A DNA stretch of 64,000 nucleotides from a virus, in the IMG/VR virus record IMGVR_UViG_3300035557_000069; one strand, given 5' to 3'. A model generated the notes under the pieces. It had not been told where the DNA came from, ran no database searches, and worked only from the letters and a program-made list of their open reading frames with translations. Positions within the stretch are counted from its first letter, which is position 1; each line of letters starts with the position of its first letter. The position numbers and the translations under genes are program-made. This document shows positions 27,516-58,820 of the stretch, in pieces.

Positions 27516-27580
27516 TGGTTTCTCCTTTGGGTTTGTCTCAATCACAAATATACTATACAACACCAAACCAGAGAAGTCAA
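27516..27580 (-). promoter_or_regulatory. Early sigma70-type promoter cassette of the PeSL-like family: -35 TTGACT (27575-27580), 17-bp spacer, -10 TATAGT (27552-27557), conserved leader and SD.
   Basis: Minus strand reads TTGACTtctctggtttggtgttgTATAGTatatttgtgattgagacaaacccAAAGGAGaaacca-GTG. Confidence 0.6.
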
Positions 27581-27589
27581 CAGAAATCT

Positions 27590-28237
27590 TTACACACCGA
27601 ATCTTTTTTCGTACTCACGACGAAGGGATAGGAAGCCACCAATCCATGTGTCTCGGCGCTCTTGGAAAACTTGTGGTTCATCATCGTCAACAGCAATGAT
27701 GATGACAAGTTGATTGATGGGTTTGGCGTAGAGTTCTTCCCACATAACAGCATAGGCTGCCGCTTGCATAAAGTAGTGGTGAATGGTTTCCATCTTCTTG
27801 CGCTTCGTGGAGGTCTTGAAGTCAATAACAGACAGACGATTACCATACTGGGCAAAACAGTCCGCAGTACCAGCCGCACGAAGATACTTGGAATAGAGTG
27901 GAACTTCCAAGCCATAGACCGTGGTGATGTTATTCAGAACGGGTTTAATGGAGTTCCAAATCTCTCTGTCAAACATATTCGGCTTGACTTCATCGTTCTT
28001 TAGGTAAGACTCACAGAGGTTGTGGATACGGGTACCACGACTACCTGCGCGGGCACCAATCTTAGTAGCTTCCTCTGCACCAACACGTTCTTTCCATTCA
28101 GCAATAGAAGTCTCGTTGTGAATAGAGGTGATGGTTGTTACAGAGGGTAACAGAAGCCCCTCGCAGTCGTAATATCGCTTACCGTCTTGCTCCACTCGCG
28201 GTAATCTTTTTGCCTTGACGGGTTGATAATCAAACAT
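27590..28237 (-). CDS. PD-(D/E)xK nuclease of the RecB/Cas4-like PDDEXK_1 family, 215 aa.
   Basis: Motif LSVIDFKTS (compare IIDYKTG) and the C-terminal QAAAYAVMWEE Q..Y motif. Confidence 0.55.
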   Translation of the reverse strand: MFDYQPVKAKRLPRVEQDGKRYYDCEGLLLPSVTTITSIHNETSIAEWKERVGAEEATKIGARAGSRGTRIHNLCESYLKNDEVKPNMFDREIWNSIKPVLNNITTVYGLEVPLYSKYLRAAGTADCFAQYGNRLSVIDFKTSTKRKKMETIHHYFMQAAAYAVMWEELYAKPINQLVIIIAVDDDEPQVFQERRDTWIGGFLSLRREYEKRFGV

Positions 28238-28841
28238 TTAGAATCCTAAGAGCCTTTTCATAGATTTGTTGGCGATGGGGTAGACCGTTGGTACCACCGT
28301 TTATTCTCTTCGTGAGAAGAACGAAGTTACCAGAGTCACAGAGGGGATTCAGATTGTTAACTTCCCAGAACCACCCAGCACTTAGTATAGCATTCTCCGG
28401 TATCAAAAGCAAGTCGGGGTCTAAGACCAATCTATCGTCGCTGAACAAGTATGTGGAACATCTCCCATAGTTGTTCTTACCCGTTACTTGAAGTATTCCA
28501 CGACCACGATACCTATAACCATCCCCAGACTCAGGAGGACCGTTTCCCATACGATTTCCATAGACAAGATTACCTATCTTTGCTGGCTTTCTAGAATAGT
28601 CAGCCGCCATACCCTCGCTCTTGAAATACTTTGGGAAGACTCTCAATAGGGCTTGGGCAGAATAGTTCAAGTTCTCTTCCAGAACATTAAAGCCCGCGGA
28701 CTCATGACCACACTGAGCCAAGAATGCGGCAACTCTCTTTGGTGTATTGATATCAAAACACGAAAGAAAGCGTTCAAGTTCGGCAGACCAGATGCCGGGT
28801 TGTCTGCACTCAGGAAGAACTTCTGCTACCGGTATTTGCAT
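28230..28841 (-). CDS. Glycoside hydrolase family 19 lysozyme (chitinase-like), a candidate endolysin, 203 aa.
   Basis: GH19 signatures AAFLAQCGHESAGF and GRGILQVTGKNNY. Downstream of a TATAAATA late promoter. Confidence 0.7.
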   Translation of the reverse strand: MQIPVAEVLPECRQPGIWSAELERFLSCFDINTPKRVAAFLAQCGHESAGFNVLEENLNYSAQALLRVFPKYFKSEGMAADYSRKPAKIGNLVYGNRMGNGPPESGDGYRYRGRGILQVTGKNNYGRCSTYLFSDDRLVLDPDLLLIPENAILSAGWFWEVNNLNPLCDSGNFVLLTKRINGGTNGLPHRQQIYEKALRILNV

Positions 28842-29077
28842 TAGCTAAACCAGACCTTCTGGTCCTCCGCAACGTATTCATCATCGCAAGACGAATACTT
28901 GGTGTGTGTTGGTAACGCCATCAAAACATCACCAAGACATGGCTTGTATGTGTCTAGAGAACTATACCAGACATTCTGACAATCTCTACACTCAATCAAT
29001 TCTCTAGAAAATCCATCGGAATGAAGACTCAACACAACAGCCTTCGTACTACCACAATTTGGACAATTTACTACCAT
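28841..29077 (-). CDS. Zinc-ribbon protein, 78 aa.
   Basis: CPNCG ... CRDCQ pattern. It is the first gene after the late promoter at 29107-29114. Confidence 0.4.
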   Translation of the reverse strand: MVVNCPNCGSTKAVVLSLHSDGFSRELIECRDCQNVWYSSLDTYKPCLGDVLMALPTHTKYSSCDDEYVAEDQKVWFS

Positions 29078-29106
29078 CTTCTTTTCTCTCTTTCTCTTAT
29101 TATTTG

Positions 29107-29114
29107 TATTTATA
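29107..29114 (-). promoter_or_regulatory. T4-type late promoter TATAAATA (minus strand), ~29 nt upstream of the Zn-ribbon/GH19 lysozyme gene pair.
   Basis: Plus strand reads tatttata at 29107-29114. Exact match to the T4 late -10 consensus. Confidence 0.55.
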
Positions 29115-29116
29115 CG

Positions 29117-29141
29117 AAAAAGCGGGGGATTTCTCCCCCGC
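29117..29141 (-). terminator. Rho-independent terminator after phoH.
   Basis: Minus strand reads GCGGGGGA-gaaa-TCCCCCGC followed by TTTTTCG, 6 nt after the phoH stop. Confidence 0.7.
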
Positions 29142-29146
29142 TAGAG

Positions 29147-29923: not shown

Positions 29924-29953
29924 TAACTAATCCTTTACGGAGATTAGTTGCGC

Positions 29954-30657: not shown

Positions 30658-30680
30658 AATGTTCCTTGAGATCAGTTCTA

Positions 30681-34397: not shown

Positions 34398-34607
34398 TTA
34401 AGCCACGATGTTGAAGTGGAAGTGGATGCCGTTCGAGGCAGCATCAGCACCGACGAAAATCGGGAAGCAACGACCCTCTTTCGTCCAAGCAGTGAAGAAA
34501 CGAACGTGACCCGTCACCTCGAAGTTGAGAGCCTTAGCAACAGCCTTCAACATATTCGCTTCGTTGGCGTAGGTCTTGGTGGGCGTCACTTCAACATGAT
34601 TCAACAT
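34398..34607 (-). CDS. Hypothetical small protein, 69 aa.
   Basis: AGGAGG SD. Directly downstream of a PeSL-type promoter. Confidence 0.45.
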   Translation of the reverse strand: MLNHVEVTPTKTYANEANMLKAVAKALNFEVTGHVRFFTAWTKEGRCFPIFVGADAASNGIHFHFNIVA

Positions 34608-34675
34608 TAGAAAGCCTCCTGGTTAGTGTTTCTCAATTACAGATACACTATACAAGAGGCTGAGGTTAATGTCAA
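34608..34675 (-). promoter_or_regulatory. Early promoter cassette of the PeSL-like family: -35 TTGACA (34670-34675), N17, -10 TATAGT (34647-34652).
   Basis: Minus strand reads TTGACAttaacctcagcctcttgTATAGTgtatctgtaattgagaaacactaaccAGGAGGctttctaATG. Confidence 0.6.
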
Positions 34676-34694
34676 CAGAAAAAAGAGAGGGGCG

Positions 34695-35138: not shown

Positions 35139-35154
35139 GGTCAGCCTTAAAACA

Positions 35155-36673: not shown

Positions 36674-36703
36674 TTTTTACGGATCCATACAATTATTTGT
36701 ACA

Positions 36704-42635: not shown

Positions 42636-42722
42636 CTTGCTCACTTTCGCTTTAGCCGGGAGGTAGGAAAGAAGACAGGGAATGAAGAAGCCGAGCAACA
42701 TCACGATTTCGTATTTCATAGA
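42636..42722 (-). CDS. Hydrophobic peptide of 28 aa (MKYEIVMLLGFFIPCLLSYLPAKAKVSK). It is the first gene after a PeSL-type promoter.
   Basis: Read from the sequence. AAGGAG sits 6 nt upstream. Confidence 0.3.
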
Positions 42723-42781
42723 GTCTCCTTGGTTAGCGTCGATTACAGATACATCTTACACCAACCAAGAAGTTGTGTCAA
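42723..42781 (-). promoter_or_regulatory. Early promoter cassette of the PeSL-like family: -35 TTGACA (42776-42781), N17, -10 TAAGAT (42753-42758).
   Basis: Minus strand reads TTGACAcaacttcttggttggtgTAAGATgtatctgtaatcgacgctaaccAAGGAGactctATG. Confidence 0.6.
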
Positions 42782-42784
42782 CAC

Positions 42785-43132
42785 TTATTTTTGTTCGGGA
42801 CGTGTTTTCATCATTTTTTCTGCGATTGTCCAAGCTAACTTACAACGGTCTTCGTTGTTGCCCGCTCCAGCATAGTCTTTGTAGCAAGAGAGAATGCCTT
42901 GGAGGGCGCCTAGGGCGAACTGGTCCCTGAGGCGGGTTTCATACTGCTCTTGATTCAACTCATGGTTCTTCCGATTGCGTTCGGCTTCCTCTTCCGCCAG
43001 CACCATCAGCTTGTCAACCATTTCGCCCAAGAGACGCCTGTTCTGCTCCTCAAGGCGCTTGGCATGGGCTTCATTCAAACGATTAATCTCTTCAATGTAT
43101 CTGTCAAGGTCAGTCACGGGGATCCTCCTCAC
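42785..43132 (-). CDS. Hypothetical protein, 115 aa.
   Basis: ORF track. Confidence 0.4.
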   Translation of the reverse strand: MRRIPVTDLDRYIEEINRLNEAHAKRLEEQNRRLLGEMVDKLMVLAEEEAERNRKNHELNQEQYETRLRDQFALGALQGILSCYKDYAGAGNNEDRCKLAWTIAEKMMKTRPEQK

Positions 43133-45318: not shown

Positions 45319-45590
45319 TTCAGAAACTCCTTGATTTTGTAGTTCCAGACGGTGTATTTGGCAGTCTTGATATTCAAGTTGAAACCGTAGTTGATACGAT
45401 CATGAGCAGTTTCGTGAATGTAACTGTCAGCAAGGCCAACTTCGACCAGTTTGTCTAGACGATAGCGAGTTTGGGAAACAGTCAAACCCAAGTGTTTTGC
45501 CCAATCGCGAAGAGAAAGCGATTTGCTTTCCGCATCCTCAAAGAGAAAAACGTTTTCTCGGACGATACTTTCAACAGTAATCTTGGGCAT
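45315..45590 (-). CDS. Putative winged-helix DNA-binding protein, 91 aa.
   Basis: HTH-like LSLRDWAKHLGLTVSQTRYRLDKL. It is the first gene after a PeSL-type promoter. Confidence 0.4.
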   Translation of the reverse strand: MPKITVESIVRENVFLFEDAESKSLSLRDWAKHLGLTVSQTRYRLDKLVEVGLADSYIHETAHDRINYGFNLNIKTAKYTVWNYKIKEFLK

Positions 45591-45652
45591 TGTGTCTCCT
45601 TGGTTGGTGTCGATTACATATACATCCTACACCAACCAAGGAGAGAAGTCAA
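45591..45652 (-). promoter_or_regulatory. Early promoter cassette of the PeSL-like family: -35 TTGACT (45647-45652), N17, -10 TAGGAT (45624-45629).
   Basis: Minus strand reads TTGACTtctctccttggttggtgTAGGATgtatatgtaatcgacaCCAACCAAGGAGacacaATG. Its 12-bp inverted repeat CTCCTTGGTTGG/CCAACCAAGGAG spans the spacer and the SD. Confidence 0.6.
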
Positions 45653-45658
45653 CCATTA

Positions 45659-45892
45659 TTATATAATCAGCGGAGATTTTTCTTCTTGGGGTTCCGCCGA
45701 CCAAGGCATACGGGGGCGACCACAGCTTGCACACACGAAGATTTGGACGGGTTGCTCAATATCTTTGCTTGATCCCACCATGACTCCGGGCACTCGTTTG
45801 ATGATGACAGCATCCCCGAAATAGGGACAACCACACTCACAGGTGATGTTTTCACACTGGGAGATATCCATCTTAACCGACATTTTATCCAT
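45659..45892 (-). CDS. Zinc-ribbon protein, 77 aa.
   Basis: CEC..C ... CASCG. Confidence 0.4.
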   Translation of the reverse strand: MDKMSVKMDISQCENITCECGCPYFGDAVIIKRVPGVMVGSSKDIEQPVQIFVCASCGRPRMPWSAEPQEEKSPLII

Positions 45893-47080: not shown

Positions 47081-48008
47081 TTACTTCGTCACATCGATGA
47101 AGGGCATCGGAGCATTCCCACCCATATACGCGGGTAGCTTACCATCCCACTTCTCAATAGCTTTCAGTTGCACGTATTCCTTACCACCCTGCTTCTGAAT
47201 AGCCTCTGCCTGAATGCGAATCTGTTCTGCCTCTGCTTCTGCCATCGCTACCTTCTGCTCGGCTTCGACCTTCACACGCTCAAGGTCATTTCGTGCCTTC
47301 ATAGCTTGCTGTTCGGCAGTCTGCTTTGCTTCAATAGCGGCATTGAACGATTGTGAGAAGTGGAAGTTTGTAATCTGAATGTCTTCCACGACCACGTTAT
47401 ACTCAGAGATAGACCGACGGAGGGCAGCCGCAATCTCATTCTTTACAGCTTCACGCATGGAAAGCAATTGCTCAGCAGAATACTTCGCTACGACTGCCTT
47501 TACAACCTCTTGAATACGTGGAGCGATAATCTTGTTCTCAACGTCTGTACCGATGGTGGAATAAATCTCCGACAGTTTGTTTTCATTGAGGTGATAGTTC
47601 AACGCTACCTCAGTATCAACATTTTGAAGGTCTTTCGTGCCAGCGTTTCGCCGGCGCTTGTGCTTTCTGTGTCTTTACGTCAATGAACACAATGCGGTCA
47701 CGAATAGGTACTCGGAAGTTCAGACCAGAACTAGCAACATTGGAAACAGAGCCGAACGATAGAACGACCGCGCGTTGACCAGCATCAACAGTGTAGAAAC
47801 AGTTGGTTGCCACCATAATCAGCAATCCCGCAAGGATGCCGAAGAGTAGATAGCGAACCTTCAACGGAAACACGAACGGCGTCTCCGCTCGTTTGGAAGT
47901 GGGAAGAGCATTGTATTCTGCTTTCTCTTCAATATACGCCCACACATAAAAACCAATACCCAACAACACAAGCACAATCACGAGGATATTCACGACCAAA
48001 GCCAACAT
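47081..48008 (-). pseudogene. SPFH/band-7 (prohibitin/HflK/C-like) membrane-protein gene split by a +1 frameshift near 47640 into ORFs 47616-48008 (TM plus SPFH N-terminus) and 47081-47602 (SPFH C-terminus).
   Basis: The upstream ORF ends ...VDAGQRAVVLSFGSV...NFRVPIRDRIVFIDVKTQKAQAPAKRWHERPSKC*. The next frame continues with the canonical TKDLQNVDTEVALNYHL...RIQEV...NVVVEDIQITNFHFSQSFNAAIEAKQTAEQQA (SPFH core plus C-terminal coiled coil). Junction read directly from the sequence. Confidence 0.6.
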
Positions 48009-48441: not shown

Positions 48442-48663
48442 TTAGGCTCCGCAGTATTCCGAGAGAAGGAACTTGGCCCGGTTCAGAGTCTTCCGGGCGG
48501 CTTCAACATCACCCATCGCCATTTCTTCCTGAGCATCGCTCAAGAGCGACATAACGACAAACGAAGCCCCGTTATGCTTGAACCCGAAAGTCATCTCAAC
48601 CGCTTTTGCATAGGCAGTGATATCTTCACACCCAAACATCTCAAGCATCGCTTCTTTCGTCAT
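48442..48663 (-). CDS. Hypothetical protein, 73 aa.
   Basis: ORF track. Confidence 0.35.
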   Translation of the reverse strand: MTKEAMLEMFGCEDITAYAKAVEMTFGFKHNGASFVVMSLLSDAQEEMAMGDVEAARKTLNRAKFLLSEYCGA

Positions 48664-48702
48664 CTCAGTTCCTTTCGTGGTGGGAGTGTCAACTACAGTT
48701 AC

Positions 48703-48731
48703 AATATACAGTAAAGCGTGGTGACTGTCAA
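48703..48731 (-). promoter_or_regulatory. Sigma70-type promoter: -35 TTGACA (48726-48731), N17, -10 TATATT (48703-48708). It is embedded in a 9-bp inverted repeat (GCGTGGTGA ... TCACCACGC) that, read on the plus strand, is followed by TTTTTTG.
   Basis: Read from the sequence. It may double as a terminator for plus-strand read-through. Confidence 0.5.
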
Positions 48732-48842
48732 GAAAAATCTTTCAATCACCACGCTTTTTTGTTTTGGCGGAGGACTTTGGCGCAACCCGCTTATCTCGCG
48801 ACTTCCACGGAGCCCGGTTATTTCATCCACCAGCCTGAATTG

Positions 48843-50938: not shown

Positions 50939-51645
50939 TAGATGACGCCCGGAGTAATGATACTCATAACTTCGGCAAGAGTACCCGTGGCATTCTGTCC
51001 GAACGCAACATATGCATAAGAACTGATGAAAGCCATTGCACTAGCATTAGCCGAGACCTCACCGCTTCCGGTAGTCTCAAACGTAGCAGTCAACGTGGCG
51101 ATATCCGCAACAAGAGCCTCGTGGAGTGGTGTAAAGTTCTCTAGAAGATAACCAACGTCCGGACCTTCACCAATTTCCGGCTGATTGGCAATCAACGCGG
51201 CAAACTCCGCCTCATAGCTTGAGTATATAGCCACTTCGCTGGCTTGATAGTCGGCATCGAAAGTTTTTGTACCCAGAAACATATAGGTACTTTGTTCAGC
51301 AACTGGCGGCAGACCATCTAGATTGTTAACCTCATTCTGAACATTAGTGGCGGATGACAGAAACATCAACTTGGTTTTATAAGCATCATTTGCCAACCAA
51401 GTATTGTTATAATGGTCAAGATATACTTCTTTTAACAATTCAAGGGCAGCCAGAACCTCAGCCTTCTCAACGGAGATATCAACAGGCGTCTCAATGGGTT
51501 CTGGATCACCAATCATCTCATAAACGTAAATCGTTTCATAAGTGGTATTAGCAACAGTCTTTAACGCATCAATCGCGGTAAAGATAGCTGTATACGGATT
51601 GGAGACTGGATTACCAGAGGCATCTATTTTATCAGAGTAAGACAT
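50938..51645 (-). CDS. Hypothetical protein co-transcribed upstream of the PAAR gene, 235 aa.
   Basis: AGGAG SD. Its stop overlaps the PAAR start. Confidence 0.45.
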   Translation of the reverse strand: MSYSDKIDASGNPVSNPYTAIFTAIDALKTVANTTYETIYVYEMIGDPEPIETPVDISVEKAEVLAALELLKEVYLDHYNNTWLANDAYKTKLMFLSSATNVQNEVNNLDGLPPVAEQSTYMFLGTKTFDADYQASEVAIYSSYEAEFAALIANQPEIGEGPDVGYLLENFTPLHEALVADIATLTATFETTGSGEVSANASAMAFISSYAYVAFGQNATGTLAEVMSIITPGVI

Positions 51646-51655
51646 GGAGACTCCT

Positions 51656-51831
51656 AAAAGGGTAACCCGTTTTTTTCTGTTTCCAAGACAAAACGGGTAA
51701 AATCTCAGTCGCGGTTAAGCGGCAAGGGCAAAGTCATACTCGCCTTTTATTGCTTTTGTCTGATATACGGCCATGACATTCCGGACTGTCCATCTTCGTA
51801 CTTGTTACCCAGTCGAAACCTTGGCACCCCC
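51656..51831 (-). ncRNA. ssrA: tmRNA (ssrA) 5' acceptor piece: acceptor 5' strand GGGGGUG (51831-51825), spacer CCAAG, D-loop analogue GUUUCGACUGGG (51819-51808), then a downstream region ending in an intrinsic terminator hairpin (51665-51698 plus a U-tract).
   Basis: Read from the sequence. Spacing and sequence match the E. coli tmRNA 5' end GGGGCUG-AUUCU-GGAUUCGACGGG. GGGGGUG pairs with the 3' strand CACCUCC at 51931-51937, with a G3·U wobble. The terminator is ACCCGUUUU...AAAACGGGU plus CUUUU. Confidence 0.55.
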
Positions 51832-51926
51832 ATCAACAGCATACTAGCAGAAGCCTCTAATCTCGCCCCAGTGGGCATAACACATGGCCTCAGTGCCCCG
51901 ATGTGTCCGGGATGATAGTATGCTCT

Positions 51927-52010
51927 TGGTGGAGGTGGCGGGATCGAACCCGCGTCCTAAGCACCTTTCGGTTGACTTCATACAGTCATATTGCTATTTA
52001 GTTATTACTA
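51927..52010 (-). ncRNA. ssrA: tmRNA (ssrA) 3' piece: T-arm, acceptor 3' strand and ACCA end (core 51927-51957), with short hairpins upstream. It lies 95 nt upstream of the 5' acceptor piece, so the gene looks circularly permuted (two-piece). The upstream boundary is uncertain.
   Basis: Minus strand reads GGAC-GCGGG-UUCGAU-CCCGC-CACCUCC-A-CCA. The E. coli tmRNA 3' end is GGACGCGGGUUCAACUCCCGCCAGCUCCACCA. A73 discriminator. No canonical tRNA 5' half lies within 100 nt upstream. Confidence 0.55.
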
Positions 52011-52328
52011 GAAACGTATTTCGTGATCAACAAGTGGTCCAAGATACTTGTTAATATCAGGATAAGTGCGAATAGTTTTCCACTCACACCACCTCGGTTT
52101 ATGATATCCTCGTTCCGCGTGTTCACTAGTATCAGAAAGATACTCAAACAGGGCGGCGACCATAAGAATCATAAACGGATGGGTCTTTCTATTCACATTA
52201 TGATGTTTATTAAACTGTGAAAGATACGCTCTTCCAGTATCACAATGAGCCACAGTTGTGCAGGACTTCACAACCTTTATGACTTTTTTCAAGTCCGAGT
52301 GTGCTTTACAGTTGTCATAGAAACTCAT
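52008..52328 (-). CDS. ORF of 106 aa that ends in three consecutive stops (UAG UAA UAA), ~50 nt before the tmRNA T-arm. It may be a protein gene and/or may contain the tmRNA tag reading frame.
   Basis: ORF track. SD AAGGAA upstream. The triple-stop reading is from the sequence. Confidence 0.3.
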   Translation of the reverse strand: MSFYDNCKAHSDLKKVIKVVKSCTTVAHCDTGRAYLSQFNKHHNVNRKTHPFMILMVAALFEYLSDTSEHAERGYHKPRWCEWKTIRTYPDINKYLGPLVDHEIRF

Positions 52329-52952: not shown

Positions 52953-53111
52953 ACATATTCTCCTCTTCGATTTGAAAGGCTTCGCGTTTCTCTTTCCGGC
53001 GGGCAGTGCGGAACATCTCGCGGCGCTTTCCGGGCGGCGGGGCGCAACATGGACAGTTCCAACCACCAACACCCACTTTGAGAAACTTCAAGTATCGTTT
53101 TCGTTCCATAA

Positions 53112-53683
53112 TTAGAACCCTTTCACCATTGGGTACTGATTGAACGCCTTGGCAAGCAACTCAAAATCATCAGTCAGTTCCGGGTTAGCAACTTCAACGT
53201 TATTGACGTTGACCCAGACGACCTCGGCCCATTTATTGTTGAGGTCTTTCAAACCATCAACAGCCACACCGAGAGTCTTCACAAGCGAGTAACCGAAGCG
53301 GCGTTCACCTTCCCAGAAGACAACACCCTTGGTACCTTTCTTGACCTTACGACCCGCGACGACCACGACTTCGGAGCCCTTGCGAACGCGGTGGGCGCGT
53401 TCAAGGTCTTCCGATTTCAGTTTGCGAAAAGCGAGTTCACGTTTATGCGCGGCATACTTCGCCTTGACTTCATCCGTCGCGTCAATCTTGCACGAAACAT
53501 CGCCGCAACCGAAGCGAGTGCTGTAGACAATACGCGACTCAGGCGCGTTTTTCTCTTTGTTCCAGACAATCACAAGTTCGTCCCAGTCATCATACCACGA
53601 CTGGTGACCAGTCTCAAGAACAGCGCCCTCAAACTCAACAATCTTTTCGCCAGTTTCGTGATTGGTGTAAATGACGGGCATTG
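53112..53683 (-). CDS. Hypothetical protein, ~189 aa from the Met at 53683 (MPVIYTNHETGEK...).
   Basis: The PeSL promoter and AAGGAGAGACTCA-ATG fix the start at 53683. The track ORF extends 17 codons upstream, across the promoter. Confidence 0.45.
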
Positions 53684-53745
53684 AGTCTCTCCTTGGTTGG
53701 CGTCGATTACAGATACATCTTACACCAACCAAGGAGACTTGTCAA
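53684..53745 (-). promoter_or_regulatory. Early promoter cassette of the PeSL-like family: -35 TTGACA (53740-53745), N17, -10 TAAGAT (53717-53722). Its 12-bp inverted repeat spans the spacer and the SD.
   Basis: Minus strand reads TTGACAagtCTCCTTGGTTGGtgTAAGATgtatctgtaatcgacgCCAACCAAGGAGagactcaATG. Confidence 0.65.
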
Positions 53746-53755
53746 CAACTATTTT

Positions 53756-55180
53756 TCACAAAATGGGTTTATTTGCGTTCTCCCGAATCTTCTCAAAGTT
53801 AGTCAAGGCAACAAACGGCTCATACAGTTTCTTCGTCATAGTGTAGACCAAGTTCAGGATAATCTTGTCTTCCCAATTCTGGTCATCCAGACGAACGGTT
53901 TTTGCCTTGCCTTCCTCGTCCTCCACGACAGTGAGGCGACCACGTTTGCTTTCTTTGCCCGGTGCTTCCTTGAAAACATCAATCCATTTACCATTGACAA
54001 GCAGGGCGCAACACTTCATGGCGAATCCGTAGGTGTCGCGGTTAACGTGTTGGAGCAGGGCACCACCCATCCCGAATGCTACGTTGTCAGCACTGAAACC
54101 TGCCCACTTGAGAGTAGCTAGGATTTCGTTGATGCTGGCTTTGTTGATGCCGTCTCCTTGAATAACGCGAACATAAGGAGGAAGCACTTTGTAACCCTTG
54201 CTGTTCCGAGTGGTACCAAACTTCTCTGCAAGGATTTCAACACAACGGCGTACGGTCGGAGCGGGGTCCCCCGAGTCCGGACGAATAACCAGAGTACCAC
54301 CAACTGCGCCGAGGGCTTCAACATCTGCCTTCAACTCGGTACCCCAGAGTTCACAAGCCTTGAAGATATCGTAGCTGTCCGAAACAACAGCCACAAGCTT
54401 GCCAGGACCGCCGTATTGTTTCAGCATATTGCGGTATGCTTCAACTTCGTTGTCTTTACCCCAACTGGTGATGGTGCTATGTTCAGCCGCAGGAATACTG
54501 AACCCTGCCATCTCTGCACCGTAGTAGTGATTGGCATACTGAACACCCTCAACAGTGTCCGAGCCGAGAAAGTTTACAAGGTGAGCCGCACCGCCGATAC
54601 CAGCAGTTTCACCCGAAGAGCAACCACGACCACCGAAGTCATGGAGTTTGAATGCGACTTGCTCTTGAACGTCACTGGTCCGCTCAAGGAAGTCTTTGAT
54701 GACTTTCTTGCAGTCATAACTTACAGTGGCGACCGAAGACGGGTACCAGATGGCGCGAAGTAGAGCCGTTTCGAGGAAGTTCACGATCCAAAAGCACACA
54801 GGATCAGTACAACATATCGTAAGTAAGCAATTACGATTTTTAATAACAGTTCCTTCAGGTAAAGCCTTGATAGTGACAGGCATATATCCTTTATACTCGG
54901 TTAGTATATACTCAAATCCTTGTTTATTGAAAGGAACCCCATGTGCTTTACAGAACAGTTCAGCCTCTTCAATATCAGCTTGAGTAATCGGGGTGAGTAG
55001 ATAGTCCTTGATGAACATCTGTAATCCAAAGAACACAAGATGATCTCCTCCTCTCGCTTCAATATACGATTGCATCCCCTCGGCTCCCGGAGGATATTGT
55101 CCTTGATGTTCAGTGTTATTGATACCGATTGAATGCGAGAATTTGTATGAATCGGTGGATAGTAGGATATTTCTTTTCAT
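53756..55180 (-). CDS. nadV: Nicotinamide phosphoribosyltransferase (NadV/Nampt), 474 aa.
   Basis: Length and motifs (STDSYKFSH N-terminus, IRPDSGDP, GDGI) are typical of Nampt. Confidence 0.85.
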   Translation of the reverse strand: MKRNILLSTDSYKFSHSIGINNTEHQGQYPPGAEGMQSYIEARGGDHLVFFGLQMFIKDYLLTPITQADIEEAELFCKAHGVPFNKQGFEYILTEYKGYMPVTIKALPEGTVIKNRNCLLTICCTDPVCFWIVNFLETALLRAIWYPSSVATVSYDCKKVIKDFLERTSDVQEQVAFKLHDFGGRGCSSGETAGIGGAAHLVNFLGSDTVEGVQYANHYYGAEMAGFSIPAAEHSTITSWGKDNEVEAYRNMLKQYGGPGKLVAVVSDSYDIFKACELWGTELKADVEALGAVGGTLVIRPDSGDPAPTVRRCVEILAEKFGTTRNSKGYKVLPPYVRVIQGDGINKASINEILATLKWAGFSADNVAFGMGGALLQHVNRDTYGFAMKCCALLVNGKWIDVFKEAPGKESKRGRLTVVEDEEGKAKTVRLDDQNWEDKIILNLVYTMTKKLYEPFVALTNFEKIRENANKPIL

Positions 55181-55223
55181 AGTAAGTCTCCCTTACTTTG
55201 GTGATGGTGAGTTGTCTATCAAC

Positions 55224-55754
55224 TCACTTATTGAATTGGTGTTTATAAGCCCGTTCTAACCAGATTTTCCATTGCTCTAAACTATGTTCTTTCTTGGAGT
55301 AGTTACAAGCAGAACAACATGGTACAACGTTATCTAGTGTGTAACCCTTGTTATTATCTACCCTATCAATACCGTTATACAGCAACGTATCATAGACCAT
55401 TCTCATTTCTGTGTTCGGTACTGTACCACAATAGTAGCATGACTGTTGCGTAATGTCAACCACATTTTGTAGTGTAAGTTCGAATAATATACCTCTCTTC
55501 TTGGCACCGCTTACGTAACGTCTGTACAACTTTCGTTTGAGACCCATTTGGTCGGGGAATCGACGATTTGGTCTAGGTGGTGAACAATCTTTACACGCCA
55601 GGCGTATTGAGTTACGTAAATCCGTAATATGTGCGTATCTAACACCACCACACTCACACTGACATACCCACTTCTTACGTTCATTATCAAAGTATGTCAG
55701 TGTGAGTTTTCCATATTTCTCGCCGCTTGTTGCTGAGTTATTTGTTCTTGCCAT
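55224..55754 (-). CDS. HNH family endonuclease, a probable free-standing homing endonuclease, 176 aa.
   Basis: N-terminal Cys4 zinc finger (CQCECGG ... CKDC). HNH core CYYCG ... GIDRVDNNKGYTLDNVVPCCSACNYSK. It sits between the two NAD-salvage genes. Confidence 0.7.
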   Translation of the reverse strand: MARTNNSATSGEKYGKLTLTYFDNERKKWVCQCECGGVRYAHITDLRNSIRLACKDCSPPRPNRRFPDQMGLKRKLYRRYVSGAKKRGILFELTLQNVVDITQQSCYYCGTVPNTEMRMVYDTLLYNGIDRVDNNKGYTLDNVVPCCSACNYSKKEHSLEQWKIWLERAYKHQFNK

Positions 55755-55958
55755 TTTGTGTCCGTTTCCAAATAAGTATTTTTATGATTACACTTATTTA
55801 GTAACAGTCACTTTTCTAGGCCTCACTCCTTTTCGGTAATCAGGCTCAACTGCCCACAAGCGGCGCCGGCGGCAACTTCGGCTTCTGTAGCGATAGCAAC
55901 AGCGAAGTCAAAACCGGCTTCTTTAAGTTCCTGAGCGATTTTCTCCATGGTATTCTCC

Positions 55959-56762
55959 TTAGATAATGTTAGTTGTGGTAATGATGCCGGCGCCCAGCCC
56001 ATTCTGGTCGCTAATCTCATTACGATTGATTGGTGATAGCTTGATGAAGAAATACTTTGGGTCAAAATACCTCTTGAGTTTGTCAATGTCAAAGTCCGCT
56101 TCATCGACCAGTGTAAGATTCACAGTGGTCTTCAACTTGCTTTTGGTGCGAATCTGACCAAGTTCTTCAATGGTCATCAGATTGTTCACTGGAATAAGTT
56201 CACGCCTGCGGTCTTCATCTAGTGAATGAAGACTAATCTGGAGCGTGATGTTGTCCTTAATCCAAGAGAAGTCCGACCCCCTAACGCCGATAGTGCTGAT
56301 ATAGTGATGAAACAGAATATCATTTCTGTGTTGCTGGAACATATCAATAGCTTTCCTGACTTCATCAATATTCAGAAAAGGCTCACCCATGCGAGTATAG
56401 TTAATCTTGAGTTCCTTGGGATGTTCGAAGCCAAGAGAATCCAAGAATTCCTCGTTCTTCTCAAGCATAACAAACTTGACTTGGTCTGTAATCTCCTTAG
56501 CAGTAAGATTGCGCCAGCCCTTCATCTGCCCAGTGGCGCAGAACTTACATCCAACAGGACAACCGGACATAGTGGACACACCAATCATCCAGCGTTCTGC
56601 TCTGGAGCCGATATTACCATCCCGCAACGCATTGGTGCCGTTGACACACTCCTTGGTATAGTAAGGCAGAAATGTGTCCGTAGTCTCAATCAGTCGCCCG
56701 TCTTCCAGTTCAAGACAGTAGACGGATCCGTTTGTGAAATGTCGGCTTCGTAGTTCTTTCAT
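55959..56762 (-). CDS. Radical SAM enzyme with an RlmN/Cfr-type cluster motif, N-terminally minimal, 267 aa.
   Basis: CPVGCKFCATG matches the RlmN/Cfr CxxGCxFCxTG pattern. GEPFLN is present. The ~60-aa N-terminal RNA-binding domain of RlmN is absent. Confidence 0.55.
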   Translation of the reverse strand: MKELRSRHFTNGSVYCLELEDGRLIETTDTFLPYYTKECVNGTNALRDGNIGSRAERWMIGVSTMSGCPVGCKFCATGQMKGWRNLTAKEITDQVKFVMLEKNEEFLDSLGFEHPKELKINYTRMGEPFLNIDEVRKAIDMFQQHRNDILFHHYISTIGVRGSDFSWIKDNITLQISLHSLDEDRRRELIPVNNLMTIEELGQIRTKSKLKTTVNLTLVDEADFDIDKLKRYFDPKYFFIKLSPINRNEISDQNGLGAGIITTTNII

Positions 56763-56764
56763 CG

Positions 56765-57796
56765 TTAAATTCCTAGCAAGTCGGTAATGATATCGTAGTG
56801 ATCCTCAAAAAGACGGTCGGGCTCCAGTTCCGAGATGGGCAGCCAGAAAGCCTTCTCCGCATCATCGGCGCCTTTGACTCGCGGCAGGTCACCACAGTTC
56901 GGTAGTTCAATGAGGAATGCGTTAGTCACAGTACGTCCGCGAAGACTACGTTCAGGAGCATCATACACCTTCTGGCGCTTGATACAACCCCTCAGGACGG
57001 GCATGGGAACCTTAATCTTAGTCTCTTCACGAAGTTCCCGAAGCATACCATCAATAAGCGTTTCCTCTTGATTGAGAAAGCCACCCGGCAAGGCATACAG
57101 TCCTTTACCCGGTTCTGCCCGGCGCTTCACCAGCAGAATATGACCAGACTGAATGACAACAGCATCCGTGGTCAGAAATGTCACGGGATAAGGAGCAACA
57201 GCCCATGACTCTTTATATCCCTTGATGTAGAAATACTCCTGAACCAGTTGCTTGAACTCCGGTGTTTGAGTAAAGCCTTGGAGATACTGGAACACGGTCG
57301 GTGGTACAAACTTCTCAAAGTAATCAAACTTGAAGTATCTATCACGCAAGGCGGTGGCGTGAAGATGGCTCAGTTCTTCATCAAAGCCCGCGGGCGAGAT
57401 GAAATGCCACTGCGGGAACATATCGATGTACCAACTGGTGTAGTCTTCCTTGTTACCCGTGATAGCGATACTCCCAAAGTCCGGATCGCCGTTGTCGGAA
57501 AGGATGACTTGGTCCACCACGTTCTGTACATGCATGGCCCATTTCTGGTCATTGTAGGTGAAGTCGTTGAGATAACCATACAGAACGCGGCTATCGTTAT
57601 CAGTGACGCCTCGAATCATAGACACACGTTCACTAGCAGTGAACGGGTTCTTGATTGTACGAGGACGATTAGCCGTGCCGATTAAGACAATGACCTTCTC
57701 GGAGTACTTCAAGGCGTTTTCTAGAATAGCTTGATGGTTCTTGTGGAAGGGCTGAAATCGCCCGATGAATACGCAATACTTGTGTTTTTTAAGCAT
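56765..57796 (-). CDS. natV: Bifunctional NMN adenylyltransferase/Nudix hydrolase (NatV-like), 343 aa.
   Basis: N-terminal nucleotidyltransferase motif CVFIGRFQPFHKNHQ. C-terminal Nudix box GGFLNQEETLIDGMLRELREETKIK. Confidence 0.85.
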   Translation of the reverse strand: MLKKHKYCVFIGRFQPFHKNHQAILENALKYSEKVIVLIGTANRPRTIKNPFTASERVSMIRGVTDNDSRVLYGYLNDFTYNDQKWAMHVQNVVDQVILSDNGDPDFGSIAITGNKEDYTSWYIDMFPQWHFISPAGFDEELSHLHATALRDRYFKFDYFEKFVPPTVFQYLQGFTQTPEFKQLVQEYFYIKGYKESWAVAPYPVTFLTTDAVVIQSGHILLVKRRAEPGKGLYALPGGFLNQEETLIDGMLRELREETKIKVPMPVLRGCIKRQKVYDAPERSLRGRTVTNAFLIELPNCGDLPRVKGADDAEKAFWLPISELEPDRLFEDHYDIITDLLGI

Positions 57797-57821
57797 AATG
57801 GACTCCCCATTAAGATATGAT

Positions 57822-57845
57822 AGTGAGGCGTCTTTCGCCTCACAC
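57822..57845 (-). terminator. Terminator-like hairpin (GTGAGGCG ... CGCCTCAC) followed by a late-promoter-like CTAAATA (57826-57832), just upstream of natV.
   Basis: Read from the sequence. Confidence 0.4.
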
Positions 57846-57866
57846 TTCTATTTAGTTTAAAATGAA

Positions 57867-58157
57867 TTACTCGTCCAAGAACGGATCTATAACACCAGTC
57901 ATTCGGCGCAATTGATATGTACACTCATTCGTGGTTTCTTTGCCGAGAGACACGGATTTACCATAGCACCTCGTTGTTTCTTTGTCGTGGCCGATAACAC
58001 AAAATCCAGCACCGATGATATCATCTTTGGTCTTGCCAATATTTCGGGTCATTTGATCATGAGATATAAAATCTGGAAACACAACTAGGGTGTCCAGCCG
58101 ACCAACACCCGTATTCAAATCACGAACGAAAATGTATTTCAATTCACTCACAGTCAT
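57867..58157 (-). CDS. Hypothetical protein, 96 aa.
   Basis: ORF track. Confidence 0.35.
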   Translation of the reverse strand: MTVSELKYIFVRDLNTGVGRLDTLVVFPDFISHDQMTRNIGKTKDDIIGAGFCVIGHDKETTRCYGKSVSLGKETTNECTYQLRRMTGVIDPFLDE

Positions 58158-58493
58158 TTATCCTTTAGTGGCTTTGGCTTCCGCCTCTTCCATGAGTTGG
58201 CGCCAGTATTTCAGAATGCGCGGTTTCTTACCGGGTGCCGCGCTCTGCCAGAACGTAAGTTGTTTAGTTGAGAGGCGTCCCATCTTCTGATAGTAGACCG
58301 CCATCGAAGAACCGATTTCAGCGTGGGCTGGCATGAAACCTCGCCCGTTGTGTTCGACCGTGGCACCCATGACTTGCTCTGATGCCGTTTGACGATTGTG
58401 AAGATGAACCAATGCGCGCCCAACTGCAACCATACCTACCGCGTCTTTGCGCATCAGAACAGTCTCAATTTTGGTGCGAAGGTCTTTGTTCAT
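58158..58493 (-). CDS. Hypothetical protein, 111 aa.
   Basis: ORF track. Confidence 0.4.
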   Translation of the reverse strand: MNKDLRTKIETVLMRKDAVGMVAVGRALVHLHNRQTASEQVMGATVEHNGRGFMPAHAEIGSSMAVYYQKMGRLSTKQLTFWQSAAPGKKPRILKYWRQLMEEAEAKATKG

Positions 58494-58629
58494 TTCTTGG
58501 CAGCCTCAACGATTTTGTTAAACGTCTTGTTAGAAACGGTACGAACACCACAGACGCGGCAGGGAAAGGTTTCAAGAACCTTGGTACCACAACAGAGACA
58601 TTTGACTTTCTTGAGGTCAGCACTCATTA
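58490..58629 (-). CDS. Unlisted zinc-ribbon mini-protein of 45 aa (MSADLKKVKCLCCGTKVLETFPCRVCGVRTVSNKTFNKIVEAAKK). Its stop overlaps the next ATG.
   Basis: Read from the sequence. Confidence 0.3.
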
Positions 58630-58632
58630 GCG

Positions 58633-58753
58633 AGCCGCTTTCTCTTTAAGCAGGGCGATGTTGGAATTGACTTCTTTCGTCGCTTTTTGGGCGGGGACTT
58701 TGGTGACTTTACCACCACGCTTCAAGAACTCTTCAACGCTTTCGATTTTCATT
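58633..58753 (-). CDS. Unlisted mini-protein of 40 aa (MKIESVEEFLKRGGKVTKVPAQKATKEVNSNIALLKEKAAR). It is the first gene after a PeSL promoter.
   Basis: AAAGGAG sits 8 nt upstream. Read from the sequence. Confidence 0.3.
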
Positions 58754-58820
58754 TTGTGGTCTCCTTTGGGGTTAGCGTCAATCACAAATACACTATACAC
58801 CAGAAGGAGACCACTGTCAA
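58754..58820 (-). promoter_or_regulatory. Early promoter cassette of the PeSL-like family: -35 TTGACA (58815-58820), N17, -10 TATAGT (58792-58797).
   Basis: Minus strand reads TTGACAgtggtctccttctggtgTATAGTgtatttgtgattgacgctaaccccAAAGGAGaccacaaaATG. Confidence 0.6.

What the first reader, a model, noticed from the sequence alone, without database searches (positions are those of the whole stretch)
27516..58820. Dispersed family of near-identical early promoter cassettes with a spacer-to-SD inverted repeat (PeSL-like)
At least six copies were found on the minus strand: 27516-27580, 34608-34675, 42723-42781, 45591-45652, 53684-53745 and 58754-58820. They share TTGAC(A/T)-N17-TA(T/A/G)(A/G)(G/A)T, a conserved leader GUAU(C/U/A)UGU(A/G)AU(C/U)GAC, AAGGAG and an ATG. 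In the best copies the 12-mer CTCCTTGGTTGG in the -35/-10 spacer is the exact inverse of CCAACCAAGGAG covering the SD, 24 nt apart. Each copy precedes a different small gene. That pattern matches the mobile promoter-early-stem-loop cassettes proposed to mediate modular gene shuffling in T4-type vibriophages and aeromonad phages. The inverted repeat could also be an operator or a cruciform or recombination site.
Basis: seen in the sequence. Interest (0 to 1): 0.55.

Follow-up and report, generated by a model that had tools for sequence, protein, structure and literature searches.

The report
Early promoter cassettes that mask ribosome sites

Summary
Seven copies, not six, lie on the minus strand against 0 expected by chance. 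Each has TTGAC(A/T)-17 nt-TAnnnT, a conserved leader, a Shine-Dalgarno (SD) sequence and a start codon. Each abuts the previous gene's stop codon and heads a different small ORFan.

In five copies the promoter spacer pairs with the SD region (-23 to -32 kcal/mol, z -4.8 to -7.8). The -10 box and the expected start site sit in the loop.

Arm sequences differ between copies, but the 3' arm nearly always covers the SD. Substitutions in the stems are G-U wobbles on the sense strand. An orthologous copy in a related phage has a compensatory U-A to C-G change. Another ortholog is 92% identical, against 62% at third codon positions of the neighbouring gene.

Best reading: a PeSL-like early promoter cassette whose hairpin masks the SD in read-through RNA. 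This is the logic of T4 genes e, soc, 49 and I-TevI, applied to sigma-70-type promoters as a repeated module. Related contigs show a gene-block indel, an inserted gene and a gene-order swap next to cassettes.

Classical PeSL stem-loops in phage phi1 do not touch the SD. No transcript or translation data exist. Verdict: new variant of a known kind, moderate interest.

The parts
27513..27591 (-). Cassette copy 1. -35 TTGACT at 27580-27575, -10 TATAGT at 27557-27552, leader ATATTTGTGATTGA, SD AAGGAG, GTG start at 27515. It precedes a 57-aa ORFan (27515-27342). Spacer-to-SD pairing is weak.
   Evidence: MFE -13.3, z -0.5. The exonuclease gene upstream stops at 27590, 9 nt before the -35 box.
34605..34684 (-). 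Cassette copy 2. -35 TTGACA at 34675-34670, -10 TATAGT at 34652-34647. 5' arm AGCCTCTTG at 34661-34653 pairs with 3' arm CAGGAGGCT (the SD) at 34621-34613. ATG at 34607. It precedes a 69-aa ORFan.
   Evidence: MFE -25.2, z -5.2. The upstream stop codon is 19 nt before the -35 box.
42717..42792 (-). Cassette copy 3. -35 TTGACA at 42781-42776, -10 TAAGAT at 42758-42753. 5' arm at 42772-42758 (CTTCTTGGTTGGTGT), 3' arm at 42739-42725 (ACGCTAACCAAGGAG). The stem has three G-U wobbles. ATG at 42719. It precedes a 28-aa ORF.
   Evidence: MFE -23.4, z -4.8. Sense -23.4 against antisense -10.5 kcal/mol. The upstream stop codon is 3 nt before the -35 box.
45588..45663 (-). Cassette copy 4. -35 TTGACT at 45652-45647, -10 TAGGAT at 45629-45624. 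16-bp stem: 5' arm at 45644-45629, 3' arm at 45610-45595 (ACACCAACCAAGGAGA). ATG at 45590. It precedes a 91-aa ORFan.
   Evidence: MFE -30.5, z -5.7. The upstream stop codon is 6 nt before the -35 box.
48661..48757 (-). It has no spacer-to-SD pairing. Instead a 15-bp hairpin (48757-48743 with 48727-48713) encloses the -35 box. This is the classical PeSL arrangement.
   Evidence: Cassette fold z +1.1; upstream hairpin -29.4 kcal/mol, z -8.0. There is a 111-nt gap after the DUF2828 gene.
53679..53758 (-). Cassette copy 6. -35 TTGACA at 53745-53740, -10 TAAGAT at 53722-53717. 5' arm at 53737-53722, 3' arm at 53703-53688 (ACGCCAACCAAGGAGA). ATG at 53681. It precedes a 189-aa ORFan and lies directly after the NAMPT gene.
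   Evidence: MFE -32.3, z -7.8. The NAMPT stop codon is 10 nt before the -35 box. Orthologs are in L271/L272 and L270.
58750..58830 (-). Cassette copy 7. -35 TTGACA at 58820-58815, -10 TATAGT at 58797-58792. 5' arm at 58814-58795 (GTGGTCTCCTT.CTGG..) pairs with 3' arm at 58773-58756 (..CCAAAGGAGACCAC). Arm sequence and register differ from copies 3, 4 and 6. ATG at 58752. It precedes a 41-aa ORF.
   Evidence: MFE -29.1, z -5.5. The ortholog in L270 has compensatory changes. The upstream stop codon is 12 nt before the -35 box.

Best explanation
These are modular early-gene expression cassettes of a T4-like phage. Each is a strong host sigma-70-type promoter: an A/T-rich tract, TTGACA, a 17-nt spacer, TAnnnT and a conserved initially transcribed leader GTATNTGTRATYGA. 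Each is fused to a strong SD and a start codon, and sits directly behind the stop codon of the previous gene. In most copies the 17-nt spacer, which the polymerase reads almost without regard to sequence, doubles as an anti-SD. In RNA that starts at an upstream promoter and reads through, the spacer pairs with the SD region in a 9-16 bp stem and hides the ribosome-binding site. RNA started at the cassette's own promoter begins inside the loop, lacks the 5' arm and has a free SD. The first gene of each unit, and the genes translationally coupled to it, would then be translated only while its own promoter fires. They would be insulated from transcription arriving from upstream. Because the cassettes are 60-90% alike over about 70 bp and flank ORFans, they also serve as homology patches for gene shuffling, as proposed for PeSLs. 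Shown directly: the sequence family, the pairing with its statistics and covariation, the conservation in orthologs, and rearrangements next to cassettes. Inferred: promoter activity, the start site in the loop, read-through, and translational masking.
For: Family and promoter: 7 matches against 0 expected. The boxes match 10-11 of 12 consensus positions with a 17-nt spacer.
Hairpin statistics: five window copies fold at -23.4 to -32.3 kcal/mol, z -4.8 to -7.8, with no shuffle doing as well. At 91 control SD+start sites in the same window, the same upstream-to-SD duplex measure averages -8.3 (sd 3.3, minimum -17.2); the cassettes score -22.6 to -30.7.
Independent arms: different copies use different arm sequences, and in nearly every case the arms cover the SD (in the weakest case, the L274 45652-type copy, the helix abuts and only partly overlaps it). 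Examples are CTCCTTGGTTGGTG/CACCAACCAAGGAG, GTGGTCTCCTT/AAGGAGACCAC, AGCCTCTTG/CAGGAGGCT, AAAGACTCCTTG/CAAGGAGTCTTT (L023), CCTCACTTTCAGGT/ACCTGAAAGTGAGG (L019) and CTTTCTCCT/AGGAGAAAG (L274). Own-arm pairing beats cross-copy pairing in a permutation test, p = 0.0006.
RNA level: the stem substitutions in 42781 and 53745 are all G-U on the sense strand. Sense against antisense MFE is -23.4 vs -10.5 and -32.3 vs -26.0.
Orthologs: L270 compared with copy 58820 has an identical 25-nt loop and a compensatory U-A to C-G change; the stems are -31.7 and -29.1. L271 compared with copy 53745 differs at 5 of 66 cassette positions (92% identity), against 62% identity at third codon positions of the adjacent NAMPT gene. 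The arm parts of the spacer are unchanged.
Geometry: the -10 box and the position 7 nt after it lie in the loop. The predicted probability that the SD is unpaired is 0.00-0.02 in read-through RNA in the four most stable window copies (0.20 in copy 42781), against about 0.3-0.5 in the cassette's own transcript.
Read-through is expected: the upstream stop codons lie 3-19 nt before the -35 box, and the scan finds no terminator-like site at any cassette.
Precedent: T4 genes e, soc, 49 and I-TevI use an RBS-sequestering hairpin whose 5' strand is encoded at the internal promoter (PMC3014915).
Shuffling: L270 lacks the 4.4-kb block 58157-53756, so that a cassette follows the 111-aa gene directly. 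L274 has a gene inserted before one cassette and two genes swapped after another. L023 5707 is a chimeric cassette that diverges inside the leader.
Against: There are no transcription or translation data. The start site is assumed from the consensus distance. Two of seven window copies lack the hairpin: 27580 is weak and 48731 has none. So does the L270 ortholog of copy 53745, whose -35 box is also degenerate (TTGCCT). The hairpin is therefore not obligatory. Distant marine T4-like contigs share the leader motif but show no general spacer-to-SD pairing: mean z is -0.76 and only 4 of 40 have z below -2. The benefit of masking an early gene in read-through RNA is conjecture. The authors of PeSL showed that one phi1/RB49 stem-loop attenuates downstream expression (PMC2839356), so a role in transcription cannot be excluded here. 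The rearrangement evidence comes from short contigs of 3-5 kb. In the clearest indel only one boundary lies at a cassette.
Confidence: 0.6

Rival explanations
1. The hairpin acts on transcription or RNA fate, not on translation. It would be an attenuator, a pause site or a factor-dependent terminator for transcripts from upstream units. That is the role the PeSL authors assigned to their stem-loops. Alternatively it would be a 3' stabiliser or a processing site for the upstream mRNA. Overlap with the SD would then be incidental, or would serve only to make the downstream RNA untranslated and so prone to Rho.
For: In RB49/phi1 a PeSL stem-loop placed before lacZ reduced expression as strongly as the rrnB T1 terminator (PMC2839356). 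The cassettes leave no room for any other terminator after the upstream gene. Copy 48731 carries a terminator-like hairpin around its -35 box, followed by a U-rich stretch.
Against: No U tract follows the 3' arm in any SD-masking copy; the sequences are AGACUCAAUG, ACACAAUG and CAAAAUG. The terminator scan reports nothing at the cassettes. A 20-24 nt loop is atypical for an intrinsic terminator. The one feature constant across unrelated arm sequences is coverage of the SD. A pure attenuator or stabiliser would not need that.
Confidence: 0.2
2. The inverted repeat works at the DNA level. It would be a cruciform or single-strand hairpin that promotes recombination between cassettes, as in PeSL mini-circle formation, or an operator for a dimeric phage regulator that shuts early promoters off.
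For: Cassettes sit next to an indel, an inserted gene and a gene-order swap in related contigs, and one copy is chimeric. In RB49 the mini-circle crossovers mapped inside the stem-loop (PMC2839356). The loop, which holds the -10 box and the leader, is the most conserved part and could bind a protein.
Against: Arm sequences differ between copies, so no single sequence-specific protein can read them. A 20-24 nt loop strongly disfavours cruciform extrusion in duplex DNA (general knowledge). Stem substitutions are G-U on the sense strand, which are A-C mismatches on the other strand and in DNA; the antisense folds lose up to 13 kcal/mol. Homologous recombination needs only the shared sequence, not the inverted repeat.
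Confidence: 0.08
3. The pairing has no function. It would be a by-product of recent duplication and gene conversion of one palindromic cassette, or of templated quasi-palindrome mutation.
For: Three window copies and several copies in L019 and L023 share the same arms and could descend from one event. Some copies and one ortholog lack the hairpin.
Against: At least six unrelated arm pairs all cover the SD. An ortholog shows a compensatory change. The cassette is far better conserved than neighbouring synonymous sites, 92% against 62%. Control gene starts in the window show nothing comparable.
Confidence: 0.05

Closest known systems
PeSLs (promoter-early stem-loops) of T4-like phages: RB49/phi1 (Arbiol et al. 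2010, PMC2839356) and PST/T4, nt-1/KVP40 (Comeau et al. 2014, PMC4122927)
   Same: A repeated composite motif of about 70-100 bp: an A/T-rich tract, a sigma-70-like -35/-10 pair with a 17-nt spacer, a stem-loop, a conserved leader, an SD and an ATG. It is concentrated among small ORFans in variable regions and lies next to indels between relatives. Copy 48731 has a classical promoter-overlapping hairpin.
   Different: In phi1 the stems are compact G-run/C-run hairpins inside the spacer or around the -10 box, and their pairing with the SD is negligible (-1 to -7.6 kcal/mol, one at -12.5). In PST and nt-1 the stems lie upstream of the promoter. Here the 3' arm is the SD, the loop holds the -10 box and the start site, and the arms vary between copies. 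The predicted effect is on translation of read-through RNA, not on termination.
RBS-sequestering hairpins with an internal promoter in T4 genes e, soc, 49 and I-TevI, and Aeh1 mobE (reviewed in PMC3014915)
   Same: The SD is held in a helix in long transcripts from upstream. A promoter sits so that its own transcripts lack the 5' strand and are translated. The 5' strand is encoded at the promoter.
   Different: The T4 cases use late promoters (TATAAATA, gp55) at single genes, to delay expression until late. Here the promoter is the host sigma-70 early type, the anti-SD is the -35/-10 spacer itself, and the device is a multi-copy cassette (at least 10 copies in one genome). The predicted outcome is the reverse: expression only while the early promoter is active.
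Fold-back inhibition in insertion sequences such as IS10 and IS50: protection from outside transcription (Davis, Simons and Kleckner 1985; from my own knowledge, not read here)
   Same: Transcripts entering a mobile module from outside contain an extra 5' segment that pairs with the ribosome-binding site. Transcripts from the module's own promoter lack it.
   Different: This is not a transposon. There is no transposase and there are no terminal inverted repeats. The comparison concerns function only.
Conserved downstream regions of strong phage early promoters, for example T5 N25 with initial transcribed sequence ATAAATTTGAGAGAGGAG (from my own knowledge)
   Same: The sequence is conserved beyond the -10 box into the first 10-15 transcribed bases, with a (T/C)GA motif around +6 to +8 followed by the SD.
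   Different: The leader here, GTATNTGTRATYGA, is a different sequence. Its role in promoter escape, pausing or factor binding is untested.

Membership tests
PeSL (promoter-early stem-loop cassette) | Sigma-70-like early promoter: -35 and -10 boxes with a spacer of about 17 nt | tested here: met
   All 7 copies have TTGAC(A/T), exactly 17 nt, then TA(T/A/G)(A/G)(G/A/T)T. They match 10-11 of 12 consensus positions. Promoter activity itself was not tested.
PeSL (promoter-early stem-loop cassette) | A/T-rich tract upstream of the -35 box | tested here: inconclusive
   The 20 nt upstream are 50-75% A+T, against about 55% for the window. AAAATAGTTG or ATTTTTCTG recurs immediately before the -35 box. 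The enrichment is modest.
PeSL (promoter-early stem-loop cassette) | A stable stem-loop within or next to the promoter | tested here: met
   Five copies have z -4.8 to -7.8, and copy 48731 has a hairpin around its -35 box with z -8.0. The geometry differs from phi1: here the 3' arm is the SD.
PeSL (promoter-early stem-loop cassette) | The stem-loop acts as a transcription terminator or attenuator | not testable with these tools
   No U tract follows the stems, and the terminator scan reports no site at the cassettes. This needs reporter or RNA data.
PeSL (promoter-early stem-loop cassette) | SD and start codon of the downstream gene at the 3' end | tested here: met
   An SD-like purine run (AAGGAG, AGGAGG or AAAGGA) lies 6-10 nt before an ATG or GTG that opens an ORF of 28-189 aa in every copy.
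PeSL (promoter-early stem-loop cassette) | Many copies, concentrated in variable regions in front of ORFans | tested here: met
   There are 7 copies in 27.5-58.8 kb of the window and 3 more just beyond it in the same phage. L023 overlaps the source contig at 100% identity. Six of the 7 first genes have no PHROG family; the seventh has only a weak match to a family of unknown function. None lies in the structural module at 3.8-23 kb.
PeSL (promoter-early stem-loop cassette) | Insertions, deletions or replacements between related phages lie at the cassettes | tested here: met
   L270 lacks window 58157-53756, and there a cassette directly follows the 111-aa gene. L274 has a gene inserted before the 48731-type cassette and two genes swapped after the 45652-type cassette. 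L023 5707 is a chimeric cassette. Caveats: the relatives are short contigs of 3-5 kb, and the ~27-kb difference in L271 does not start at a cassette.
PeSL (promoter-early stem-loop cassette) | Excision of cassette-flanked ORFans as mini-circles | not testable with these tools
   This needs inverse PCR on phage DNA. ORFans flanked by two cassettes do exist, for example L023 5707-6054.
T4-type RBS-sequestering hairpin with an internal promoter (e, soc, 49, I-TevI) | SD or start codon paired in transcripts that come from upstream | tested here: met
   Prediction only: P(SD unpaired) is 0.00-0.02 in four of the five hairpin-bearing window copies and 0.20 in copy 42781. The MFE and centroid structures agree.
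T4-type RBS-sequestering hairpin with an internal promoter (e, soc, 49, I-TevI) | The promoter is placed so that its own transcript starts inside the hairpin and lacks the 5' strand | tested here: inconclusive
   The -10 box and the position 7 nt after it lie in the loop, and the 5' arm is the spacer. The geometry is shown by the sequence; the start site is not mapped.
T4-type RBS-sequestering hairpin with an internal promoter (e, soc, 49, I-TevI) | The internal promoter is a T4 late promoter (TATAAATA, gp55-dependent) | tested here: not met
   The cassettes carry -35/-10 boxes of the sigma-70 type. TATAAATA occurs twice in the window, at chance level, and not at a cassette. The element works like the T4 cases but is not a member of that set.
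IS-type fold-back inhibition | Part of a transposable element with a transposase and terminal inverted repeats | tested here: not met
   No transposase: none of the downstream first genes has an annotated function (six have no PHROG hit, one weakly matches a family of unknown function). Similarity between copies ends at the -35 flank and at the start codon. This is a functional analogy only.

The most novel reading that the evidence does not exclude
The cassette is a self-insulating, portable expression module. The anti-SD sits in the only part of a sigma-70 promoter that is free to vary. This ties translation of the downstream gene to initiation at its own promoter, so the gene's expression does not depend on where recombination drops it. 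Leaving the first ORF untranslated in read-through RNA may also trigger Rho-dependent polarity. If so, tightly packed early units would be insulated from each other without any intrinsic terminator. This would be a general design principle for the hyperplastic early regions of T4-like phages, and a natural counterpart of synthetic insulated promoter-RBS parts.
Probability: 0.3. Interest if true: 0.65.

Novelty: new variant of a known kind. Interest (0 to 1): 0.5.

Why it matters
Hyperplastic early regions of T4-like phages hold most of their unknown genes. How dozens of tandem early units avoid cross-talk has only been addressed by the PeSL terminator idea. A promoter spacer that doubles as an anti-Shine-Dalgarno sequence would give a second, translational route to insulation and to strict immediate-early timing. 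It would extend the T4 e/soc/I-TevI principle from single late genes to a repeated early module. The prediction is easy to test with reporter fusions. The design is compact enough to be useful as a synthetic-biology part: expression only from the proximal promoter, regardless of context. The case also shows that cassette-mediated shuffling occurs in a T4-like lineage far from the phages where it was described.

Tried and rejected
1. Cassette sharing between genomes. Contigs L019 and L023 share only the 43-74-bp cassette with the window, which at first looked like mobility between genomes. L023 then proved to overlap the source contig at 100% identity. It is the same phage, so these are paralogous copies and not evidence of transfer.
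2. Collection scans with the leader pattern. The 16-mer scan of viral contigs returned mostly chance hits, and the profile found no further cassette in them. The metagenome scan returned a distant marine T4-like group, an unrelated human-gut promoter family and singletons. It gave no close relatives.
3. Loci related through NAMPT (L026, L027; 49-56% identity). They are too distant, carry no cassette and show no useful synteny.
4. Exact-protein look-ups. They found only the same phage in a fragmented assembly whose contigs break at the cassettes.
5. Column-wise covariation counting. I abandoned it because the arms sit in different registers in different copies. I used per-copy energies, a cross-pairing permutation and ortholog comparison instead.
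6. The drop in nucleotide identity at the cassette in L271: about 84% upstream against about 65% downstream. I did not count it as a recombination junction, because it may only reflect a conserved enzyme lying next to a fast-evolving ORFan.
7. Homologs of the 69-aa first gene. They occur in unrelated phages without any cassette.
8. Melting of the hairpin by ribosomes terminating at the upstream stop codon (translational coupling). I considered this and rejected it on distance: the 5' arm starts 12-33 nt after the stop codon.
9. A similarity search of the cassette against isolated phages gave only sub-significant fragments of 22-25 nt.

Full report
**Source and setting.** The window is most of a 67.6-kb JGI metagenome contig (3300035454, Ga0394088_087292). 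It comes from a T4-like myovirus that has no close relative among isolated phages. A megablast of 8 kb gave only a 50-nt hit. The gp5-like hub protein is at most 39% identical to proteins of cyanophage, Methylophilales, Pseudomonas and Caulobacter T4-like phages. Baseplate and tail genes occupy about 3.8-23 kb. From 23 kb to 64 kb almost all genes are on the minus strand. Most are small. Among them are a DNA ligase, ThyX, radical-SAM proteins and an NAD salvage pair, NAMPT and NMNAT-Nudix.

**The observation.** A pattern made of the -35 box, the -10 box and the leader finds seven sites, all on the minus strand, against 0.00 expected. The extra one has its -35 box at 48731. An nhmmer profile finds no further copy in the window. 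The repeat finder recovers the family independently, with 61-90% identity to reference copies. The exact 12-mers 24 nt apart occur in two copies. Each cassette runs from a short A/T-rich tract through TTGAC(A/T), exactly 17 nt, TAnnnT, the leader GTATNTGTRATYGA and an SD, to a start codon.
- The first genes are 57, 69, 28, 91, 73, 189 and 41 aa. Six have no PHROG family and one weakly matches a family of unknown function.
- Six cassettes begin 3-19 nt after the stop codon of the preceding gene; copy 48731 begins 111 nt after.
- No terminator-like site is reported at any cassette.

**More copies in the same phage.** IMG/VR contig L023 is 100% identical over 1,189 bp to the part of the source contig just beyond the window. 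It carries three more copies in the same orientation. L019, from the same sample as L023, carries five. The phage therefore has at least ten copies. A fragmented assembly of the same phage breaks exactly at cassettes.

**The inverted repeat is a real, selected hairpin.** Five window copies, folded as RNA from the -35 box to the start codon, give one dominant hairpin.

| Copy | MFE (kcal/mol) | z-score |
|---|---|---|
| 34675 | -25.2 | -5.2 |
| 42781 | -23.4 | -4.8 |
| 45652 | -30.5 | -5.7 |
| 53745 | -32.3 | -7.8 |
| 58820 | -29.1 | -5.5 |

No shuffle out of 200 does as well for any of these five. The 5' arm is the promoter spacer. The 3' arm is the SD region. The 20-24-nt loop holds the -10 box and the conserved leader. 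Copy 27580 pairs only weakly (z -0.5). Copy 48731 does not pair at all, but has a 15-bp hairpin enclosing its -35 box (-29.4 kcal/mol, z -8.0).

At 91 other SD+start sites in the window, the same upstream-to-SD duplex measure averages -8.3 (sd 3.3, minimum -17.2). The five cassettes score -22.6 to -30.7.

The arms are not one sequence. At least six unrelated arm pairs occur in the window, L019, L023 and a relative, L274. They extend 5' or 3' of the SD in different registers and, in all but the weakest case, include the SD. Each spacer pairs better with its own SD region than with those of other copies (permutation p = 0.0006).

**RNA or DNA.** Relative to the perfect 45652 stem, the substitutions in 53745 (A to G) and 42781 (A to G, plus two C to T changes) all give G-U pairs on the sense strand. 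On the other strand they would be A-C mismatches. Sense against antisense MFE is -23.4 vs -10.5 for 42781 and -32.3 vs -26.0 for 53745. Together with the long loop and the variable arms, this favours a sense-strand RNA structure over a cruciform or an operator.

**Orthologs.** Protein searches with the first genes found related phages on short contigs.
- In L270, the cassette orthologous to 58820 has an identical 25-nt loop. Its arms are changed in a compensatory way, including U-A to C-G. It forms a perfect 13-bp core, GGTCTCCCTTTGG/CCAAAGGGAGACC. The stems are -31.7 and -29.1 kcal/mol.
- In L271/L272, the cassette after NAMPT differs from copy 53745 at 5 of 66 positions (92% identity). Third codon positions of the adjacent NAMPT gene are only 62% identical. 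No change falls in the arm part of the spacer. A plain promoter does not need a conserved spacer.
- One ortholog, the L270 copy of 53745, has lost the 5' arm and also has a degraded -35 box, TTGCCT. This shows that the hairpin is dispensable. It also fits the model after the fact: a gene that must be translated from read-through RNA cannot keep the mask.

**Predicted consequence.** With a start site 7 nt after the -10 box, the cassette's own transcript begins at G/A in ..TGTAAT.. and lacks the 5' arm. The predicted probability that the SD is unpaired is about 0.3-0.5 in that transcript. In RNA arriving from upstream it is 0.00-0.02 in four of the five hairpin-bearing window copies and 0.20 in copy 42781. 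Because the cassettes abut upstream genes with no terminator, such read-through RNA should be common. Several units continue with overlapping stop and start codons, for example 45590-45315 followed by 45318-45028. The mask may therefore control a coupled chain of genes.

This is the logic described for T4 genes e, soc, 49 and I-TevI. There, long early transcripts sequester the ribosome-binding site, and transcripts from a late promoter that encodes the 5' strand are translated (PMC3014915). The difference here is that the internal promoter is of the sigma-70 early type and the device is a multi-copy cassette. The predicted outcome is translation only while the early promoter fires, and insulation from upstream units. 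A possible extension, untested, is that the untranslated first ORF makes read-through RNA a Rho substrate.

**Comparison with PeSLs.** The two PeSL papers define the element as follows: an A/T-rich tract, a sigma-70-like promoter, a stem-loop, an SD and an ATG, repeated in hyperplastic regions, next to indels, with stem-loops acting as terminators or attenuators. I extracted 17 such promoters from phage phi1. Their stems are compact, for example GGGGATC..GATCCCC inside the spacer or GGGGGTA..TACCCCC around the -10 box. They do not pair with the SD: the duplex energy is -1 to -7.6 kcal/mol, with one at -12.5. The present cassettes therefore share the composite design and the genomic behaviour of PeSLs, but have a different stem geometry and a different predicted effect.

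Evidence for shuffling:
- L270 lacks the whole block 58157-53756 (a 96-aa gene, NMNAT-Nudix, radical SAM, a 176-aa gene and NAMPT). There the 53745-type cassette follows the 111-aa gene directly.
- L274 has a homolog of window gene 46061-46486 inserted before the 48731-type cassette. It also has the two genes after the 45652-type cassette in swapped order. L277 shows the same swap; L278 shows the window order.
- L271 joins the 189-aa gene to ClpP (window 26295), skipping about 27 kb. That junction is not at a cassette.
- L023 5707 is a chimeric cassette, identical to 45652 up to GTAATC and unrelated after it.

**The conserved loop.** The leader motif also follows TATAGT-type -10 boxes, in front of several different genes, in many marine T4-like contigs. 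Some of these share 30-55% protein identity with the window. It is therefore conserved far beyond neutral expectation. Those copies mostly lack SD pairing (mean z -0.76). Some have small palindromes inside the spacer instead. What the leader does is open: promoter escape, a -10-like pause element or a factor site. It resembles the conserved downstream regions of T5 early promoters (my own knowledge).

**Verdict.** The thing is a PeSL-like early promoter cassette with a new twist, an anti-SD promoter spacer. The pairing is under selection, with high confidence. Its role as a translational mask of read-through RNA is the best-supported mechanism (about 0.6), but it rests entirely on sequence analysis.

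Noticed in passing
window 51624-52018 (-): A phage-encoded permuted (two-piece) tmRNA gene. ARAGORN gives the tag peptide GEYDFALAA, and Rfam RF04321 scores 104.6 bits. Permuted tmRNAs are typical of alphaproteobacteria, cyanobacteria and some betaproteobacteria, so this may hint at the host.
   Followed up: partly
window 26639-26852: A perfect tandem duplication of 2 x 107 nt between minus-strand genes. Each unit carries a strong SD (GGAGG) and a 6-codon mini-ORF (MKRDYG), followed by a small hairpin. It could be a leader-peptide or small-RNA element, or an assembly artefact.
   Followed up: partly
window 53756-58157 (-): A block that includes the NAD salvage genes (NMNAT-Nudix and NAMPT) together with a radical-SAM gene and small genes. 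It has no cassette of its own. The whole block is absent from the related contig L270.
   Followed up: partly
L270 2361-2431 and 2902-2974; L271 844-914: In the related phages the -35 box of the orthologous cassettes reads TTGCCA or TTGCCT instead of TTGACA. The preceding AAAATAGTTG and the rest of the cassette are kept.
   Followed up: no
loci L003-L020, L029-L137 (marine metagenome and IMG/VR contigs): Many marine T4-like contigs carry TTGACT-ttgttctcaaaacatcg-TATAGT-GTATATGTAATTGAGAGAAAGGA in front of several different genes. The leader motif is thus shared with phages whose proteins are only 30-55% identical to those of the window.
   Followed up: partly
loci L028, L031, L042, L045, L048, L066, L073, L083, L104, L127, L129 (mostly labelled human-gut metagenome contigs): An unrelated, highly conserved family, TTGACAggcacaagatgcagtgcTATACTgtatctgtaattgatttttgtgcgtatccc, contains the same 15-mer after its -10 box. 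No SD or start codon follows. It may be the promoter of a non-coding RNA.
   Followed up: no
window ~47121-47170: A 50-nt stretch inside the Band_7/SPFH gene is 94% identical to Rak2-like jumbo phages (Salmonella 7t3 and SE_PL, Klebsiella fENko-Kae01). It is the only megablast hit of that 8-kb query against isolated phages.
   Followed up: no
L025 2077-2131; L267 1-60: Contigs of the Logan assembly SRR36367033 of the same phage end exactly inside cassettes. The repeats are long and similar enough to break short-read assemblies.
   Followed up: partly
window 58800 and 53732: ORF listing (both sites) and the contig's own gene calls (58800) start the first genes at GTG or TTG codons inside the promoter, giving 57 aa instead of 41 and 206 aa instead of 189. 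The SD-preceded ATGs are at 58752 and 53681.
   Followed up: yes
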